From positions 64,001 through 128,000 of the forward strand of contig JBMOPW010000034.1 of NCBI GenBank assembly GCA_049322915.1: DNA of 64,000 bases. The letters are read 5' to 3'. A program made the position numbers. This stretch comes from Candidatus Zhuqueibacterota bacterium (lineage in GTDB: Bacteria; Zhuqueibacterota; Zhuqueibacteria; Thermofontimicrobiales; Thermofontimicrobiaceae). This document shows positions 37,601 through 46,600 of the stretch, piece by piece. Numbering within the stretch: the first letter of the stretch is position 1; every line of letters starts with the position of its first letter.

Positions 37601-40600
37601 ATTTTAAATCGACAATGGGCAGCGTTCTCATTTTCGAATTCAGAAACACGGTTGTTTTCCGCGATGGTTCCCCAATTGCAATCCGCGGCATTGCCAGGAA
37701 TGTGACCGAGCATATTAAGGCTGAATTGAAATTAAAAACAAGCGAAGAACGCTATCGAAATCTGTTTCAACATTCCATCGCCAGCATTGTGCTGCTGGAC
37801 AGGGATTTGAATTTCATTGACGCAAATAAGGCTGCCATCGAGCTTCTGGGCTATCAGCGACAGGAGTTATTGGCGTTGAATTTTCAGCATATCATCCTGA
37901 ACCGGGAGAGCTTTACCTCGCTCTTTGGAAATTTGAAACAATCCGGCAACCTGGTCAATTTGGAACTGCTGCTGAAGAAACGCAATGGATCGAGGATTTG
38001 GGCGCTGAGCAATGCCACGTGGATTGAGGATAGCCCGAGCCAGCAGATCGGCATTCTCTTCACTATCTTCGATATTACATCCCGTCGACAGGCTGAGCAA
38101 TTGCTGGCAGAAGAAAAAGAGCGTCTGGCTGTTACGCTGCGGAGCATTGGCGACGCCATTGTGACGACCAATACGCTGGGCGAAATTTTGCTGTTCAATC
38201 ACGCCGCTGAAAAATTATGCCAGATCAGCAGTCTTGAAATCAACGGTAAATTCTTTGAAGAAGTCTTTCAAATCGTGGATGAACAAACCAATGAACGGTG
38301 CGCCTCTCCGGTGGAGGAAGTGCTCAAAGCGGGACAGATTGTCCAACACTTGAAGAATCGTATTTTAATCACAAAGGACAACAGTCAGAAATACATTTCC
38401 TACAGCAGCGCTCCGATCAAGGATAAAGAGGACCAGACTCTCGGCGTTGTTCTGGCGATTCGGGACGTGACTGAGAAAATCAAGCTGGAAGAAGAAGTGT
38501 TAAAAATGCGCAAACTGGAATCGGTGGGAATTTTAGCCGGTGGGCTCGCGCACGATTTCAACAACATTCTGACGGCGATTGTCGGAAATCTGTTCCTGGC
38601 CAAAATGTCGCTGTGCAATGAGAATACGGAAACCATCTCATTGCTGGACGACGTGGAAAAGGCGACTCTCCAGGCTAAAAAACTGACGCAGCAATTGCTA
38701 ACGTTCTCGCGGGGCGGAGCGCCCATCAAGAAGACTGAAGCAATCCACGATCTCATTCGCGATTCGATAAATTTCACGTTACGGGGTTCCAATGTCCGCT
38801 GTGAGTATTTCATCAGTGATGATCTCTGGCCTGTTTTTGGGGACACAGGTCAGATCAATCAGGTGCTGAACAATTTAGTGATGAATTCGGATCAGGCCAT
38901 GCCCGAAGGCGGCATCCTGGAAGTGCATGCGATAAATGCTGTACTCGCTGAAAAATCAGCGCTGCCGCTTAAGCCCGGGCGGTACATCAAAATTACAATC
39001 AAGGATACCGGGATTGGAATTCCAGCGGAATACCTTCCGAAAATATTTGATCCTTATTTTTCCACAAAAAAAGCCGGCAATGGCCTCGGCCTGGCCACGG
39101 TGTATTCCATCATTTCCAAACATGATGGTTATATCACAGTTGAATCAAAAATCGGAAAAGGGACATCAGTGATTTTCTATCTCCCGGCGTCAATGCAAAA
39201 AATTGCTCCTCTGAATAGCCCTCAAATAACGCTGCAGCAAGGCAAGGGTAGAATTTTACTGATGGATGACGAACTGGGCATTCGGGAAGCCACCGGCAAA
39301 ATTCTGAAAAAATTTGGTTATGATGTTGATTTTGCCTGTGAAGGCAGCGAAGCGCTGGAGAAATACCAGCGCGCCATCGAAACACGCCACCCTTTTGATT
39401 TGGTGATTCTGGATTTGACCATCCCCGGCGGAATGGGCGGATTGGAAACAATCAAAGAATTGCTGAAGCGGGATCAGGGTGCAAAGGCGATTGTGTCCAG
39501 CGGCTATTCATCCGACCCGGTAATGGCCAATTTCAAACAATATGGCTTTTGTGAATTTATTGCCAAGCCTTATAATCTCAATGAGCTGCGCACCAAACTC
39601 TACAAAGTGATGAACAATTAATACTTCTTGATTTTTCAAATATTTTTTTTTATCTTACTCCCCAAAAATCAATGCCTCTTGTTTAGCCTTTTTTTTTCGA
39701 AGAATTGGATGGTAGAAAGATGACTGAAGAAACACATGTAAGCGATGATGAGATCGTGCCTCATCAGGCTAAGGCTGGAGAAGTCACGTCCCGATTCCCC
39801 GGTTTTTACAAGCTTGAACTCTCGACCCGCCTCGATATGTTAGATCAATGGTATCCCCTGACGACAAAAGAAAAATGGAAATTAAAACGTGAGACGCTCA
39901 CACCCGAACTCGCTGATGTGATGGTCGAAAATGCCATTGGTGTTTTTGGATTACCTCTGGGCGTTGCCGTGAATATAAAATTGAATAACAAAGACTACGT
40001 CATGCCAATGGCAGTGGAGGAATCATCGGTCATTGCCGCTGCGAGCAACTCCGCCCGGCTCATTCGCGATCATGGTAAATTGACGGCTGAGGCAACGGAC
40101 CCAATCATGTTCAGCCAGATTCAGGTTGTGAATGTCAGGAACCCGAAGCGGGCCATCGCGAAAGTGCTTGAAAAGAAAGCAATGCTTTTAAAAGTGGCCA
40201 ACCAACAGGATCCTGAGTTGGTCCGTCTCGGCGGCGGCGCAAAAGACATCGACGCACGCGTGATTGATTCGCTCAGCGGTCCCATGGTGATCATGCATAT
40301 TTACGTCAATTGCGTCGATGCCATGGGCGCCAACGCTGTCAATACAATGGCCGAAGCCCTGGGGCCGATCATCGCCGACCTGGTGAATGGCGAAGTCATT
40401 TGTCAGATTGTCTCCAACCTGTCCGATCATCGTCGGGTGAAAGTGCGCATGGAACTGGAAACAAGCTGTCTGGCGCGCTCCGGATTCTCCGGTGAAGAGG
40501 CTGCGGATCGAATTATAAAAGCCTATCATTTCGCGGAGGCTGATCCGTATCGGGCGGCCACGCATAACAAAGGCGTCATGAATGGCATCGACGGCATTGT

Positions 40601-43600: not shown

Positions 43601-46600
43601 GCTCCATGCTGTAGTGAAAATCCGGAAAGAACATGGCGATGACGGGCTCAATAGTCTAAGAGCGGCTTTTGAAGCCCATCCATCTTTGAAGTACTGCGTC
43701 GTTGTCGACGAAGACATCGACATTCACGCCACGGAACAGGTGGAATGGGCTGTTGCCACTCGGTTTCAGGCGGATAAAGATTTACTGGTGATGAGCGATA
43801 TGCCGTCAAGCTCGCTCGATCCGTCGGCGTATCATATTCCAGGAAAGAAAAGCCGGGGCGCAAAACTGGGACTGGACGCGACAATTAAAAAGAGCGGGGC
43901 CGAGCGCGCGATGTTCGAGCGGGTGAGGCTATAATGCTGTCCCGGCCATGCGAACGGATTGCGATGAAGAACGCGCTCCTTTCACAGCCAGTTGATTCAG
44001 GGGCAATTATTATAAAGATTTAATCAGGAAATAAAATGACAGTCCAAAGCATCCCTGAAGCACTCCCAGGGAAATGAGAGTATAGGCGTCGTAATCCTGT
44101 GATTGCCGGTAATAGTGGTTCATGTCGGCGAGGGAGCCGGCTTTCAGATATTTATCATACCAATCTTCGGCTTCACTCTTCAGATAAACTGTGGCCAATC
44201 CGGATACAATGGATGCGCCCCACAGGCCATAGGCCACCTTCCGATATCTCATCTTTTTCGCGTTCAATTTTTCAAATGACGTCGCCGGCTCCAGTGAAAT
44301 TTTCTCAGCTCGCATCAGAGGAATGTTGATGAAATTTTCTTTGATTTGCGCGCTGAAAATATGGTAAGATCGGTAGCCTGGCTTCTCGATTAAAATATCG
44401 ATGTTGGTTCCCGGCTCCAGGGATATGGTCAATGGGGTTTTGCCCAGGGGCACGTTATTCACGGTAACTTCTGCGTCGAAGGGCGTCGTGCGAATGGTCA
44501 GCCGGCGACTGAATTGCGGTGAAATTATCAGCGTGTCGTTCGGCGTAATCGTAATTTCGCGCTGCCAGTCTCGATTTCCCCAGACGTGGCGATTCGGGTG
44601 CAGTGCGGTCACCGCGTAGGTTCCAGGGGCAAGCGCCAACGCAGCAAGGCCAGAAAAACCAGCGAAATTGCCATTGATCAGAATCTCAATCCCCGGAGTT
44701 TCCGTTTCAATTTTCAGGTATCCCCTGCCCTGGTCGTTCTGGCATAAAAGCAGAGCGCTATTCCCCAGAAGAAAAACGAATGCAATCCACAGTGACTTTC
44801 TGAACACGCTCACTCCTCTCCTGCCGTTTTGAACGCATACACATCATTGTTCTCCGAGGCGGCAATCAGATAGTCACCCCAAACGACTGGCATCGTGCGA
44901 ATTCTTCCCCTGGTTTGATATTTCCAGAGTTCTTTCCCTGTCTGTAAATCCACCAGATAGAGATGCCTGTCCAGCGACCCGAAAACAACTTTATCATTGC
45001 AAATCAGCGGGCTGGTGCTTATCACGCTTTGCGCCTCGAATTTCCAGTTGAGCGCGCCGGTTGCAGGGTTCAGACAATACACATGGGAATCCGTGGAGCT
45101 GAAGAGGAGAACAGTGTCGTTAACGGCAGCCGATTGAAGAATTTGTCCCTCAGCAGAAAACGTCCATTTGAGCGCGCCGTCCGCTGCATTGAGAGCATAC
45201 AGCGTTCGATCGCTGGAGCCGATATACACGGTATCATTGAAAATCGCCGGCGTGGCCACGACGCTTGAACCGGTGGCATAGGTCCATAGAATTGCGCCGT
45301 CAATTTTTTTCACGGCGTAAACAACGCCGTCATCCGCGCCGAACACGATGATGTTGCCCGAAACTGCCGGTGAAGACCGGATTTGCTCTTTAATCTTGGT
45401 TTGCCAGATACGCACACCGCTGCGCAGTTCATACAGGTCGATGTGGTTGTAGAGCGCGGTGACGATGATGCTCGCGCCAAATACCAGCGGCTCGGACGAA
45501 ATGTCGCCCGCGTCCACGCCCCATTTCATTTTCGACTTTCGCAGATCGTAACTGAAAAGCGTTTTGTCGCCATACCGCCGGGCGATGATAACATTGGTAT
45601 CGGCCACAGTGAATGTGGAAGCCACATCCATTTTGATATTGCCAATTTTCTCTCCGGTGCGGATGTCCAGCGAAACGATTCGCCCATCTTTTGTCCCAAA
45701 AAAGACAGCGCCATCCACGACCGAAAGATAGCTCTCAATCGCTGAACTGGCTTTGAAATGCCAGATCAGTTCCAATGGCAGTGTGAGTGCGCCCGGGTAG
45801 ACATTGTTTCTCGCCGGATTTCCGCCAAACATGGGCCAATTCAGTGCTGCATCCGTGGATTGCATCGGCTGGATATATTTTATTTTGGCGCAGGAAACCA
45901 GCGCCAGCAATGCGATGAAGACGGTTTTAAATGTGACAGAAATTTTCATTCTGAGACCAGATTCCTTGTGTACGTGAGACTGCTGAGTTAACAAACGTTT
46001 TAGAAATCCCAGCCAAAGAAGAACTGCTGGAACATACCGGATTGCATAGTGAATTTGTCCGAGTTGAACAGATCATGGGTATCGTGCAGCATAAACTTTT
46101 TGCCGAAATCAAAACGGAGGACGAGTATACCGCCGATGCGAAAGCGAATGCCGAATCCCATACTCCCCAAAACCGAGTTCAATTCGTCATCCCAGGCATT
46201 GCCGAGATCCACAAAGCTGGCGCCGCGGATAGCGCTGAATCCCATACCGCCAAACGGAAAATTGATGATGAATCGGTCGATGAAAGGGAAGCGGAGTTCA
46301 TTGCTGACCAGAAAGATTTTCTTGCCCCAGATTGACCATCGTTTATAGCCGCGCAGATCCCAGCTTCCACCCATGTAAAAATGAAGGGGTTCCTTGCCGT
46401 GGTTGTACTGAGTCATCGCGCGAACAGCAAAGGTCGTCCGTCGGGTGAGACGGAAATATTTACGCGTGTCCACAATGATCGTATAGAAATTCACATTGGA
46501 ATGGCGCACGTCCATGGTATTGCCCAGCGTCAAATTGATCCGTTCGCCATCCATGGGGCCGGACGGTCCCCAGAGGGAATTGTCCTTCACGTAGCTGATG

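What a model noticed while it worked through the whole genome (the two positions that open the first line are those of the whole stretch)
39720..43934. Three routes to isoprenoid precursors in one bacterium: MEP, archaeal (anhydromevalonate) and haloarchaeal-type mevalona [...]
Besides a full MEP pathway the genome encodes the archaea-type mevalonate pathway (HMGR-mevalonate kinase-UbiX-UbiD/AMPD cluster; phosphomevalonate dehydratase AcnX large+small subunits next to isopentenyl phosphate kinase) and, inside a carotenoid cluster, a second HMGR with a phosphomevalonate decarboxylase. With GGGP synthase (PcrB), a DGGGP-synthase-like UbiA and a geranylgeranyl reductase 47% identical to the archaeal lipid reductase, I propose that this FCB bacterium makes archaeal-type isoprenoid ether lipids fed by a dedicated archaeal MVA route while MEP serves quinones/carotenoids. 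It would be the first FCB-superphylum case of the anhydromevalonate pathway and of three parallel rou [...]
Evidence so far: swissprot.tsv: g00188 49.9% to PMDh large subunit (E 7e-120), g00187 52.4% to PMDh small subunit, g00186 IPK 33.5% (C2:52.9-56.2 kb); g03438 HMGR, g03439 MVK, g03440 UbiX, g03441 39.9% to anhydromevalonate phosphate decarboxylase E 2e-81 (C34:103720-107934); g03748-50 HMGCS/thiolase/DUF35; g04188 phosphomevalonate decarboxylase 32% and g04191 HMGR in the carotenoid cluster C36:159-176 kb; g02449 IDI. MEP: g04329 Dxs, g01787 Dxr, g00736 IspD, g03277 IspE, g00737 IspF, g00259 IspG, g00698 IspH. Lipid genes: g03176 PcrB 48.5% to GGGPS, g00339 32% to DGGGPS, g01431 47% to [sequence left out] reductase beside UbiA g01429 and ferredoxin g01430. 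relatives.tsv: AcnX in 14 and UbiD in 21 of 166 genom [...]
(Added by a program. Inside this text positions count along the whole contig: contig position 64,001 is position 1 of the stretch shown here. "Call 12" and the like, gene names such as g00115 and contig names such as C1 are that model's own, and its searches are not shown. The text may have been shortened before it was handed on; [...] marks where a part breaks off. The agent that wrote the report below was given it as the finding of a first reader that could run no searches.)

Follow-up and report, generated by a model that had tools for sequence, protein, structure and literature searches.

The report
Archaeal-type mevalonate operon in a bacterium
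A bacterium of the little-known KSB1 group carries the energy-saving mevalonate pathway typical of archaea beside the usual bacterial route to isoprenoid building blocks, plus a second way past one step, but nothing ties this to archaeal-style membrane lipids.

Summary
Window 39720-43934 (+) is a tight four-gene operon: class II HMG-CoA reductase, mevalonate kinase, UbiX and the genome's only UbiD.

The UbiD is best read as anhydromevalonate phosphate decarboxylase (AMPD). 71 of 80 related loci hold mevalonate genes beside it. Bathyarchaeia have MVK-UbiD-AcnX-IPK. Elusimicrobiota have a seven-gene HMGR-MVK-UbiX-UbiD-AcnXL-AcnXS-IPK operon.

The missing steps lie on contig C2: type IIb AcnX large and small subunits and IPK. 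All seven MEP enzymes are present. A decarboxylase in the carotenoid cluster has the phosphomevalonate-decarboxylase residue signature.

So the gene inventory holds, with one correction. The two mevalonate branches share HMGCS, MVK and IPK, so there are two pathways, one of them forked.

The ether-lipid idea is not supported. GGGP synthase occurs in 142 of 151 sampled genomes of the phylum, the AMPD in 8. No G1P dehydrogenase or CarS was found.

This is a new member of a known kind (shown in Chloroflexota in 2024). The window's order is a mosaic of isoprenoid routes.

The parts
39622..39719 (+). AT-rich intergenic stretch upstream of the operon; presumed promoter and leader region
   Evidence: Sequence read. 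It has not been tested, and the sigma-70-type scan gave no convincing site here.
39720..41096 (+). Class II HMG-CoA reductase (HMG-CoA to mevalonate)
   Evidence: PF00368 335 bits and TIGR00532 407 bits against a cut-off of 260. The ORF runs from 39705 with an ATG at 39720. It is 65% identical to the second copy on C36.
41089..42039 (+). Mevalonate kinase (mevalonate to mevalonate 5-phosphate); the only MVK-equivalog hit among the 6 GHMP kinases found
   Evidence: TIGR00549 241.8 bits against 163. Genome-wide list of GHMP kinases. The ORF starts at 41059, with ATG candidates at 41089 and 41098.
42052..42657 (+). UbiX flavin prenyltransferase, which makes the prenylated FMN cofactor that UbiD-family decarboxylases need
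   Evidence: TIGR00421 195.8 bits against 108.9. It lies next to the UbiD gene in 9 of 80 related loci. A UbiX-UbiD fusion protein also exists (P0008).
42657..43934 (+). [quoted passage not shown]
   Evidence: It is the only UbiD-family match in the genome. It scores far below the MqnL and UbiD equivalog cut-offs. Relatives sit in mevalonate operons in 71 of 80 loci. In the tree it groups with relatives labelled KSB1, 'uncultured Cytophagia' or unnamed, and with Elusimicrobiota and Planctomycetia. The nearest ESM Atlas clusters are auto-named AMPD (a lead only).

Best explanation
The four genes form one operon that encodes the core of an archaeal-type (anhydromevalonate) mevalonate pathway in a bacterium of the KSB1 / Candidatus Zhuqueibacterota lineage.

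Inferred flow:
1. The HMGCS-thiolase-DUF35 trio on C34 makes HMG-CoA.
2. HMGR (window) reduces it to mevalonate.
3. MVK (window) makes mevalonate 5-phosphate.
4. The two-subunit [4Fe-4S] dehydratase AcnX type IIb (contig C2) makes trans-anhydromevalonate 5-phosphate.
5. The UbiD enzyme (window), loaded with prenyl-FMN made by UbiX (window), decarboxylates this to isopentenyl phosphate.
6. IPK (next to AcnX on C2) makes IPP.
7. A type 1 IDI gives DMAPP.

The pathway coexists with a complete MEP pathway. A Chloroflexota-type phosphomevalonate decarboxylase, encoded with a second HMGR inside the carotenoid cluster, can carry out steps 4 and 5 in one ATP-dependent reaction that needs no iron-sulfur cluster.

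Shown here: gene content, family membership, conserved cluster ligands and signature residues, conserved gene neighbourhoods, and distribution among relatives. Inferred: every enzymatic activity, and which route is used when.
For: Family scores for the four genes are above the curated cut-offs.

The UbiD:
- It is the sole UbiD-family match in the genome.
- The family was not found in 5 of 5 other genomes of the phylum that I checked.
- Of the 80 best related loci from species-representative genomes, 71 carry at least one mevalonate gene beside the UbiD: MVK in 57, AcnX large in 65, AcnX small in 59, IPK in 42.
- 4 of 4 Elusimicrobiota loci have HMGR-MVK-UbiX-UbiD-AcnXL-AcnXS-IPK.
- 45 to 49 of 50 Bathyarchaeia loci have MVK and AcnX around the UbiD.

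The AcnX:
- The large subunit's best solved relative is the Thermococcus kodakarensis PMDh homologue 7cnr (347.5 bits, against 206 for type I hydroxyproline dehydratase).
- Cys121, Cys301 and Cys358 align with the three cluster ligands that PMC10040528 reports for the Aeropyrum enzyme as Cys122, Cys297 and Cys356.
- The small subunit matches 7cnr_B.

IPK passes its equivalog cut-off (183.8 against 120).

Not a binning artefact:
- The operon lies on a 755-kb contig among bacterial housekeeping genes and a T9SS-tailed protein.
- Contig C2 carries both ispG and AcnX-IPK.
- The same gene set recurs in the same-genus genome and in 6 more genomes of the order.

The PMD:
- It is 57-67% identical to Chloroflexota proteins.
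- Its residues Y67, M70, R76, A194, S196 and T248 fit the MPD pattern of Dellas 2013, Table 4 (R. castenholzii Tyr74, Leu77, Arg83, Ala201, Ser203, Thr255). [quoted passage not shown]
- The catalytic Asp340 and the ATP motif are kept.
- No PMK-like gene was found.
Against: - No enzyme was assayed and no expression data exist; no RNA run holding this DNA was listed.
- The characterised AMPDs (Aeropyrum pernix, Methanosarcina mazei, Ca. Promineifilum breve) were not in my trees, so orthology rests on archaeal and bacterial homologues defined by gene context.
- The best solved-structure relative of the UbiD is a furandicarboxylate decarboxylase-type enzyme (6h6v, 205.5 bits), and some databases name close homologues that way.
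- In this lineage the module is split over two loci on different contigs, and in one related genome (L008/L029) the UbiD has no mevalonate neighbours.
- The AcnX small subunit scores 161.1 against a cut-off of 163 for its NCBIfam model.
- Dxs lies on a short 5.4-kb contig.
- Position 2 of the PMD signature is Met, not the Leu of R. castenholzii.
Confidence: 0.85

Rival explanations
1. One reading: the archaeal mevalonate route is a dedicated supply line for archaeal-type isoprenoid ether lipids made by GGGPS, a DGGGPS-like UbiA and a geranylgeranyl reductase, while MEP serves quinones and carotenoids.
For: - The GGGPS equivalog is present (TIGR01769 229.7 against 161.55).
- A UbiA-family gene is followed by a geranylgeranyl-reductase-family gene whose best equivalog match is an archaeal lipid reductase. 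That match is far below its cut-off (260.9 against 780).
- Comparable gene sets were shown to make ether lipids in E. coli for Cloacimonetes genes (PMC7852524, passages).
Against: - GGGPS is in 142 of 151 sampled genomes of the phylum and the AMPD in 8 of 151, so the two are not co-distributed.
- There is no gene linkage between the lipid genes and the mevalonate genes.
- No G1P dehydrogenase and no CarS were found.
- The one piece of physical linkage points the other way: a mevalonate branch (PMD plus the second HMGR) sits in the carotenoid cluster.
Confidence: 0.08
2. The UbiX/UbiD pair is not a mevalonate-pathway enzyme. It would be an aromatic or heteroaromatic acid decarboxylase, or a quinone-biosynthesis decarboxylase, that merely lies beside HMGR and MVK.
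For: - The best solved relative is an HmfF-type enzyme.
- JGI names several close homologues '2,5-furandicarboxylate decarboxylase 1'.
- In one related genome the gene lacks mevalonate neighbours.
Against: - Scores are far under the equivalog cut-offs for MqnL (149.7 against 495.9), UbiD (123.8 against 788) and VdcC (162.1 against 650).
- 71 of 80 related loci place it among mevalonate genes in both archaea and bacteria.
- Within the phylum it occurs only in an order where AcnX type IIb and IPK also occur.
- UbiD and AcnXL trees give the same nearest neighbours.
Confidence: 0.03
3. The combination is an artefact of metagenome binning: contigs of an archaeon or a Chloroflexota bacterium were mixed into the bin.
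For: - The genome is a 45-contig assembly with 2.48% estimated contamination.
- Dxs is on a 5.4-kb contig.
- One mis-binned-looking contig was seen elsewhere (L051).
Against: - The operon is on a 755-kb contig with bacterial leuS, thrS, BamB-like, Omp85-like and T9SS genes.
- C2 holds both ispG and AcnX-IPK.
- The same set is in the same-genus genome G113. That covers UbiD, AcnX and IPK, Dxr, IspH and IspG, and the PMD-like gene beside a CruF-like gene.
Confidence: 0.02
4. The redundancy is a passing stage of pathway replacement rather than a division of labour: one of the routes (MEP, AcnX/UbiD or PMD) is a silent leftover on its way to loss.
For: The order shows every stage among its 21 genomes:
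- MEP markers only.
- MEP plus classical MVA.
- Dxr and IspG without IspH, plus the archaeal MVA.
- No MEP markers at all, in 5 of 5 genomes of one family.
Against: - All genes of all three routes in this genome are full-length open frames that score above family cut-offs or carry intact catalytic residues.
- The same full set is kept in the second species of the genus, at 69-77% protein identity. That implies selection over a long time.
Confidence: 0.15

Closest known systems
Archaeal (anhydromevalonate) mevalonate pathway of Aeropyrum pernix and Methanosarcina mazei (Hayakawa 2018 and Yoshida 2020; seen only as cited in passages of PMC10040528 and PMC12547664)
   Same: Same step order: MVK, two-subunit AcnX type IIb dehydratase, UbiD-type decarboxylase with a UbiX-made cofactor, then IPK. 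The three Cys ligands are conserved. The gene order MVK-UbiD-AcnXL-AcnXS-IPK seen in Bathyarchaeia is found in Elusimicrobiota. In this lineage it is split in two.
   Different: The host is a bacterium with a complete MEP pathway. HMGR is class II and heads the operon. IDI is type 1, not type 2. The module is split over two contigs.
Archaeal mevalonate pathway in Candidatus Promineifilum breve, Chloroflexota (Kanno 2024, PMC11337835). The paper is not held; it was seen only in reference lists and in one review sentence in PMC13001223
   Same: A bacterium carrying PMDh and AMPD. Chloroflexota relatives in my sample show UbiD-AcnXL-AcnXS clusters.
   Different: The window's UbiD and AcnXL group with Elusimicrobiota and Planctomycetia (100* and 99*), apart from the Chloroflexota clade. 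It is a different phylum, in the FCB group. Dxr was found in 0 of 9 Chloroflexota AMPD-bearing genomes checked; here MEP is complete.
Alternative mevalonate pathway of Roseiflexus castenholzii: MPD/PMD plus IPK (Dellas 2013, PMC3857490; passages and Table 4 read)
   Same: The C36 decarboxylase is 57-67% identical to Chloroflexota proteins. It has the about 55-residue N-terminal extension and the MPD-type phosphate-site residues. There is no PMK, and IPK is present.
   Different: Here it coexists with the AcnX/UbiD branch and with MEP, and it lies in a carotenoid cluster with its own HMGR. Position 2 of the signature is Met, not Leu.
Bacteria with both MEP and MVA (Streptomyces, Listeria, Mycobacterium marinum). 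The review PMC13001223 gives 2.42% of 4,249 species (passages)
   Same: Two complete routes to IPP/DMAPP in one genome, with a mevalonate-gene set placed beside a terpenoid (carotenoid) gene cluster.
   Different: In those cases the MVA pathway is the classical PMK/MDD type. Here it is the archaeal type with an added PMD bypass.
GGGPS/DGGGPS gene sets of FCB-group bacteria (Villanueva 2020, PMC7852524; passages)
   Same: GGGPS, a UbiA-family gene and a geranylgeranyl-reductase-family gene are present. CarS is missing, as in Cloacimonetes.
   Different: Those genomes had MEP plus only thiolase and HMGCS of the MVA pathway. The string 'KSB1' does not occur in that paper's main text. Here GGGPS is a core gene across the sampled phylum, independent of the isoprenoid route.

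Membership tests
AMPD (anhydromevalonate phosphate decarboxylase, UbiD family) | UbiD-family three-domain architecture | tested here: met
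   PF20695, PF01977 and PF20696 all match; TIGR00148 323.8 bits against 244.85.
AMPD (anhydromevalonate phosphate decarboxylase, UbiD family) | A UbiX-type prenyl-FMN synthase is available | tested here: met
   The adjacent gene is UbiX, TIGR00421 195.8 bits against 108.9.
AMPD (anhydromevalonate phosphate decarboxylase, UbiD family) | Orthologues are embedded in operons of the lower mevalonate pathway, with PMDh and IPK in the same genome | tested here: met
   71 of 80 related loci hold mevalonate genes. AcnX type IIb and IPK are on C2.
AMPD (anhydromevalonate phosphate decarboxylase, UbiD family) | Falls in one clade with biochemically characterised AMPDs | tested here: inconclusive
   It groups with archaeal homologues defined by gene context, and the ESM Atlas clusters are auto-named AMPD. 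The characterised proteins themselves were not available for the tree.
AMPD (anhydromevalonate phosphate decarboxylase, UbiD family) | Decarboxylates trans-anhydromevalonate 5-phosphate | not testable with these tools
   This needs an enzyme assay or pathway reconstitution.
PMDh (phosphomevalonate dehydratase, AcnX type IIb) | Separate large and small subunits encoded side by side | tested here: met
   L001 8949-10181 and 8560-8988, both on the minus strand.
PMDh (phosphomevalonate dehydratase, AcnX type IIb) | Closer to type IIb than to type I | tested here: met
   347.5 bits to 7cnr_A against 206 bits to type I. Comparison with types IIa and IIc-f was not possible, because no reference sequences were available.
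PMDh (phosphomevalonate dehydratase, AcnX type IIb) | Three Cys ligands of the [4Fe-4S] cluster (sites A, 1 and B) | tested here: met
   Cys121 (LTCTPY), Cys301 (GCPHAS) and Cys358 (DTCMVV) align with the cysteines of the T. kodakarensis protein. The ligand positions are taken from PMC10040528.
PMD / MPD (phosphomevalonate decarboxylase) | [quoted passage not shown] | tested here: met
   Y67, M70, R76, A194, S196 and T248. Five of six equal the R. castenholzii residues, and position 2 is Met, which is also what a Roseiflexaceae homologue has.
PMD / MPD (phosphomevalonate decarboxylase) | Catalytic Asp and GHMP ATP motif kept | tested here: met
   Asp340 in STDTGP and GLGTSAS at residue 155.
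PMD / MPD (phosphomevalonate decarboxylase) | Curated family cut-off of the NCBIfam PMD model | tested here: not met
   NF040704 191.8 bits against 475; also below the BMD cut-off (163.5 against 560) and the MDD cut-off (121.1 against 171.35). My inference is that the PMD model does not represent the Chloroflexota type; I did not check what it was built from.
PMD / MPD (phosphomevalonate decarboxylase) | No PMK in the genome, IPK present | tested here: met
   TIGR01220 gave no match at E <= 1e-15 in the window's genome. IPK scores 183.8 against 120.
Complete archaeal ether-lipid pathway | G1P dehydrogenase and CDP-archaeol synthase | tested here: not met
   The PF13685 matches are AroK/AroB and a generic iron alcohol dehydrogenase. 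PF01864 gave 0 matches.
MEP pathway | All seven enzymes, Dxs to IspH | tested here: met
   Dxs 828.5, Dxr 504.6, IspD 242.6 and IspF 207.4, IspE 244.1, IspG 435.8, IspH 220.8. All are above their cut-offs.

The most novel reading that the evidence does not exclude
The window's order would be a living series of the transitional states proposed for mevalonate-pathway evolution, and the fork would be a division of labour set by oxygen.

- The ATP-saving AcnX/UbiD branch depends on an iron-sulfur cluster. Like IspG and IspH of the MEP pathway, it would serve anoxic growth.
- The PMD plus second HMGR encoded inside the carotenoid cluster would be the only route to IPP free of iron-sulfur enzymes. 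It would keep carotenoid synthesis supplied under oxygen or light stress.

The coexistence of PMD-type and dehydratase/decarboxylase branches is the intermediate predicted by the scheme in PMC9254496, in which PMD arose beside the archaeal system and then replaced it. That coexistence is seen here, in 7 further genomes of the order and in 4 of 9 Chloroflexota genomes checked.
Probability: 0.25. Interest if true: 0.7.

Novelty: new member of a known kind. Interest (0 to 1): 0.5.

Why it matters
The anhydromevalonate pathway was described as archaeal, and so far it has been shown in bacteria only for one Chloroflexota MAG. This finding adds several things.

- **A second bacterial clade.** KSB1-type genomes, Elusimicrobiota and Planctomycetia form a separate clade that carries the pathway. 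Elusimicrobiota have a ready-made seven-gene operon.
- **A three-way comparison in one genome.** This genome keeps the pathway beside a full MEP pathway and a PMD bypass. That gives a natural system for asking why cells keep redundant precursor routes.
- **A testable evolutionary scenario.** It allows a test of the proposed order archaeal-type, then haloarchaeal-type, then classical for mevalonate-pathway evolution.
- **Parts for engineering.** It offers bacterial versions of the ATP-saving enzymes for isoprenoid production.
- **A correction.** GGGPS in this phylum is a core gene. It should not be read as a sign of archaeal-type lipid supply from the mevalonate route.

Tried and rejected
- **RNA evidence.** The look-up of sequencing runs listed no RNA holder. 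It listed only DNA runs, one of which may be the source sample.
- **Papers not held.** Kanno 2024 and Hayakawa 2018 are not in the library. What I say of them comes from reference lists, one review sentence and recall.
- **Outgroup for the UbiD tree.** I looked for other UbiD-family genes in 5 genomes of the phylum and found none. The trees are therefore unrooted, and the direction of transfer cannot be told.
- **Earlier notes of this scan.** None fitted this look-up.
- **Promoter and terminator scan.** It gave nothing usable for the operon.
- **Specificity of the DMD-family proteins in the other AMPD-bearing genomes of the order.** G145 and G095 have Tyr-Arg-Asn-Ser-Ser-Ser with a 3-residue insert. 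This could not be settled from the signature.
- **The UbiA beside the reductase.** Only a general UbiA-family match was obtained, so I make no call on whether it is a DGGGP synthase.
- **Not used.** Structure prediction, the complex prediction and the representative-protein search were not used; none would have changed the reading.
- **Long branches.** Two rows in the AcnXL tree (L086, L088) had very long branches and are probably mis-extracted frames or paralogues. I drew no conclusion from them.

Full report
**What is at the coordinates.** Window 39705-43934 holds four open frames on the + strand that overlap or lie at most 13 nt apart.
- A class II HMG-CoA reductase: PF00368 335 bits, TIGR00532 407 bits against a cut-off of 260.
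- A mevalonate kinase: TIGR00549 241.8 against 163.
- A UbiX flavin prenyltransferase: TIGR00421 195.8 against 108.9.
- A UbiD-family decarboxylase: TIGR00148 323.8 against 244.9.

The neighbours are ordinary bacterial genes. Upstream lie a PAS hybrid histidine kinase and leuS. Downstream, on the opposite strand, lie a PEGA protein, a BamB-like protein and an Omp85/TolB-like protein. Further upstream are thrS, RNase Y, folD, nadC, uvrD, mltG and a 2821-residue Ig-repeat protein with a type IX secretion tail. The operon therefore sits in a native chromosome context on a 755-kb contig.

**Is the UbiD an anhydromevalonate phosphate decarboxylase?** Several lines agree.
- It is the only UbiD-family match in the 6.25-Mb genome. 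None was found in 5 of 5 other genomes of the phylum that I checked.
- It scores far below the equivalog cut-offs for the menaquinone decarboxylase (149.7 against 495.9), UbiD proper (123.8 against 788) and VdcC (162.1 against 650).
- Its closest database relatives (56-72% identical) are from MAGs labelled candidate division KSB1 or 'uncultured Cytophagia'. Next come Elusimicrobia (48-55%), Planctomycetota (49-51%), and then archaea and Chloroflexota (43-49%).
- I took the 80 best related loci from species-representative genomes and searched their flanks with this genome's own mevalonate proteins. 71 of 80 carry at least one mevalonate gene beside the UbiD: MVK in 57, AcnX large subunit in 65, AcnX small subunit in 59, IPK in 42.
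- Among 50 Bathyarchaeia loci, MVK is present in 45, AcnXL in 49, AcnXS in 47 and IPK in 37, typically in the order MVK-UbiD-AcnXL-AcnXS-IPK.
- All 4 Elusimicrobiota loci have the seven-gene order HMGR-MVK-UbiX-UbiD-AcnXL-AcnXS-IPK. The one Planctomycetia locus has the same order without UbiX.
- 9 of 15 Chloroflexota loci have UbiD-AcnXL.
- The ESM Atlas places the protein next to clusters auto-named anhydromevalonate phosphate decarboxylase (score 0.98). That is a lead only.

The characterised enzymes themselves were not available to me, and the best solved structure is a furandicarboxylate-decarboxylase-type enzyme. Orthology therefore rests on gene context and on the trees, not on a direct comparison.

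**The rest of the pathway.**
- On contig C2, three adjacent genes on one strand encode IPK (NF040647 183.8 against 120), an AcnX small subunit (161.1 against 163, just under the cut-off) and an AcnX large subunit.
- The large subunit's best solved relative is the Thermococcus kodakarensis PMDh homologue (7cnr_A, 347.5 bits), against 206 bits for the type I hydroxyproline dehydratase. The small subunit matches 7cnr_B.
- Cys121, Cys301 and Cys358 align with the cysteines of that protein. They correspond in position to the three [4Fe-4S] ligands Cys122, Cys297 and Cys356 of the Aeropyrum enzyme described in PMC10040528 (passages).
- An archaeal-type HMG-CoA synthase (TIGR00748 548 against 353) is followed by a thiolase and a DUF35-type protein, about 430 kb further along the window's contig.
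- The IDI is type 1 (135 against 105.8). No type 2 IDI was found.
- Of six GHMP kinases found, only the window's gene is a mevalonate kinase. The others are IspE, two galactokinase-like proteins, an HddA-like protein and one unassigned protein.
- No phosphomevalonate kinase was found.

**MEP.** All seven enzymes are present above their curated cut-offs: Dxs (on a short 5.4-kb contig), Dxr, IspD and IspF, IspE, IspG and IspH. IspG lies on the same contig as AcnX-IPK. This argues against a binning artefact, as does the identical gene set in the second species of the genus, G113.

**The third element.** In a carotenoid cluster on C36 there are three CrtI-family genes, crtB, a lycopene cyclase domain protein, CruF-like and CruG-like genes and a carotenoid oxygenase. 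The same cluster holds a second class II HMGR, 65% identical to the window's copy, and a 397-residue decarboxylase of the DMD family that is below every NCBIfam cut-off.
- Its nearest relatives are Chloroflexota proteins at 57-67% identity.
- This protein has Y67, M70, R76, A194, S196 and T248, a constant offset of 7 from the Roseiflexus numbering. It keeps the catalytic Asp (D340) and the ATP motif.
- With no PMK and with IPK present, a phosphomevalonate decarboxylase is the best reading.

This is a bypass, not a separate route, because it uses the same HMGCS, MVK and IPK.

**Relatives.** In a sample of 151 genomes of the phylum (window's genome included):
- The AMPD-type UbiD is in 8, all in the window's order.
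- AcnX large subunit at 56% identity or more is in 10. Four further genomes have a 35-36% relative, which is another AcnX type.
- IPK is above its cut-off in 18. These include all 10 AcnX genomes, where IPK lies on the same contig as AcnX.

The order has 21 genomes and is a mosaic.
- Dxr is in 16 of 21, IspG in 14 and IspH in 9.
- One family (5 of 5 genomes) has none of the three MEP markers. It has AcnX and IPK in 5 of 5, UbiD in 4 of 5 and a DMD-family gene in 4 of 5.
- Three genomes of two genera (90-95% complete) have the archaeal set, Dxr and IspG, but no IspH match at E <= 1e-30.
- Three genomes have a canonical MDD with a PMK-like gene next to it or on the same contig.
- Only the window's genus combines all MEP markers, the archaeal set and the Chloroflexota-type decarboxylase.
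- Two genomes of the order (G151, G152) were not in the phylum sample, so their UbiD, AcnX and IPK status is unknown.

Among 14 other bacterial genomes that carry the AMPD (4 Elusimicrobiota, 1 Planctomycetia, 9 Chloroflexota), Dxr was found in 2 and a DMD-family gene in 4, all of them Chloroflexota. None had both.

**Trees.** In a quick maximum-likelihood tree of 42 UbiD sequences, 12 of the 50 Bathyarchaeia were kept at random and 4 rows under 395 residues were dropped.
- The window's protein and 6 relatives labelled KSB1, 'uncultured Cytophagia' or unnamed join Elusimicrobiota and Planctomycetia with SH-aLRT 100.
- 13 Chloroflexota form their own group (95).
- The 16 archaeal-clade rows form another group (96). 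One of these rows is a 4.8-kb contig labelled Acidoferrum.

The AcnX large-subunit tree (27 rows) again puts this genome's protein with Elusimicrobiota and Planctomycetia (99), and it puts all bacterial rows on one side of a branch (95). The two genes therefore share a history although they are unlinked in this lineage. The lineage's version is distinct from the Chloroflexota one. Both trees are unrooted and the archaeal sample is narrow. Neither the direction nor the number of transfers can be stated.

**The ether-lipid proposal.**
- PcrB is a true GGGPS-family member (TIGR01769 229.7 against 161.55). It sits between alaS and a Cps4B-like gene.
- The same equivalog is found in 142 of 151 sampled genomes, 141 of them over the cut-off. 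The count is 140 of 149 without two genomes flagged unpublished. GGGPS is therefore a core gene of the phylum whatever the isoprenoid route.
- A UbiA-family gene is followed by a geranylgeranyl-reductase-family gene (TIGR02032 230.6 against 158.8). Its best equivalog match is an archaeal lipid reductase, but at 260.9 against a cut-off of 780.
- No G1P dehydrogenase and no CarS were found.

The genome may make some GGGP-derived lipid, as was proposed for other FCB bacteria (PMC7852524; passages). Nothing links that to the archaeal mevalonate route.

**Literature.**
- The review PMC13001223 (passages) states that some Chloroflexota encode an archaeal-type pathway. It cites Kanno 2024, which is not held.
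- PMC10040528 calls the pathway unique to archaea. [quoted passage not shown]
- PMC12547664 (abstract and passages) gives the ATP saving.
- PMC9254496 (passages) proposes that PMD arose beside the dehydratase/decarboxylase pair and then replaced it.
- The phylum paper PMC11683472 has no occurrence of mevalonate, isoprenoid, MEP or carotenoid in its main text. It describes the phylum as mostly facultative anaerobes. NCBI taxonomy places KSB1 (Ca. Zhuqueibacterota) in the FCB group.
- Searches for anhydromevalonate + bacteria, KSB1 + mevalonate, Promineifilum + mevalonate pathway, archaeal mevalonate pathway / phosphomevalonate dehydratase / bacteria, Zhuqueibacterota, and Elusimicrobia + mevalonate pathway found no report of this pathway in FCB bacteria, Elusimicrobiota or Planctomycetota.
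- Subscription papers and supplements that I could not see, notably Kanno 2024 and Hoshino & Villanueva 2023, may list such cases.

**Verdict.** This is a real, well-supported archaeal-type mevalonate operon in an FCB-group bacterium. The kind is known. The host lineage, the coexistence with a full MEP pathway and a PMD bypass, and the order-level mosaic are new details of moderate interest. The ether-lipid interpretation should be dropped.

Noticed in passing
Relatives of the window's order (handles G095, G124, G083): Three genomes that are 90-95% complete and carry the archaeal mevalonate genes keep Dxr and IspG but gave no IspH match at E <= 1e-30. This may be a truncated MEP pathway ending at HMBPP.
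   Followed up: partly
Relatives of the window's order, family f2 (G102, G131, G132, G142, G145): This family has none of the three MEP markers in 5 of 5 genomes. It has AcnX and IPK in 5 of 5, the AMPD-type UbiD in 4 of 5 and a DMD-family decarboxylase without PMK in 4 of 5. The decarboxylase's substrate signature (Tyr-Arg-Asn-Ser-Ser-Ser plus a 3-residue insert, read in G145) fits neither MDD nor MPD.
   Followed up: partly
L034, L036, L037, L038 (Elusimicrobiota) and L035 (Planctomycetia): A complete seven-gene operon HMGR-MVK-UbiX-UbiD-AcnXL-AcnXS-IPK; in Planctomycetia it lacks UbiX. I found no paper in the held library that describes it.
   Followed up: partly
P0008: A 616-residue protein, 63% identical to the window's UbiD, that also carries the Flavoprotein (UbiX) domain: a natural UbiX-UbiD fusion.
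   Followed up: no
L001 13701-15562 (G000:C2, about 59.7-61.6 kb): MAD3 and MAD4 genes of a methylation-associated defence system (448.8 against 420; 195.3 against 160), a few kb from the AcnX-IPK cluster. A SelD gene and a B12-binding radical SAM gene also lie nearby.
   Followed up: no
window 3569-12034 (+): A 2821-residue protein made of HYDIN/ASH-type Ig-like repeats with a type IX secretion C-terminal sorting domain.
   Followed up: no
window 37213-39621 (+): A hybrid histidine kinase with three PAS domains and a receiver domain, directly upstream of the operon on the same strand. An ORF of the same length (802 residues) precedes the operon in the related locus L007. A sensing role for the operon is conceivable but untested, and the L007 ORF was not scanned.
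   Followed up: no
L051 (4.8-kb contig labelled Candidatus Acidoferrum): Its UbiD and AcnXL nest inside Bathyarchaeia in both trees, and its gene order is the archaeal one. It is probably an archaeal contig mis-binned into a bacterial MAG.
   Followed up: partly
L008 / L029 (related genome, 62% identical UbiD): Here the UbiD follows a RapZ-like kinase and a nucleotidyltransferase instead of HMGR-MVK-UbiX. The operon has been rearranged in this relative.
   Followed up: no
Phylum sample, families f5 and f12 (G080, G082, G105, G114, G130, G133, G135): Seven genomes outside the window's order have an IPK above the cut-off but no AMPD-type UbiD or type IIb AcnX. They may use a PMD/IPK route.
   Followed up: no
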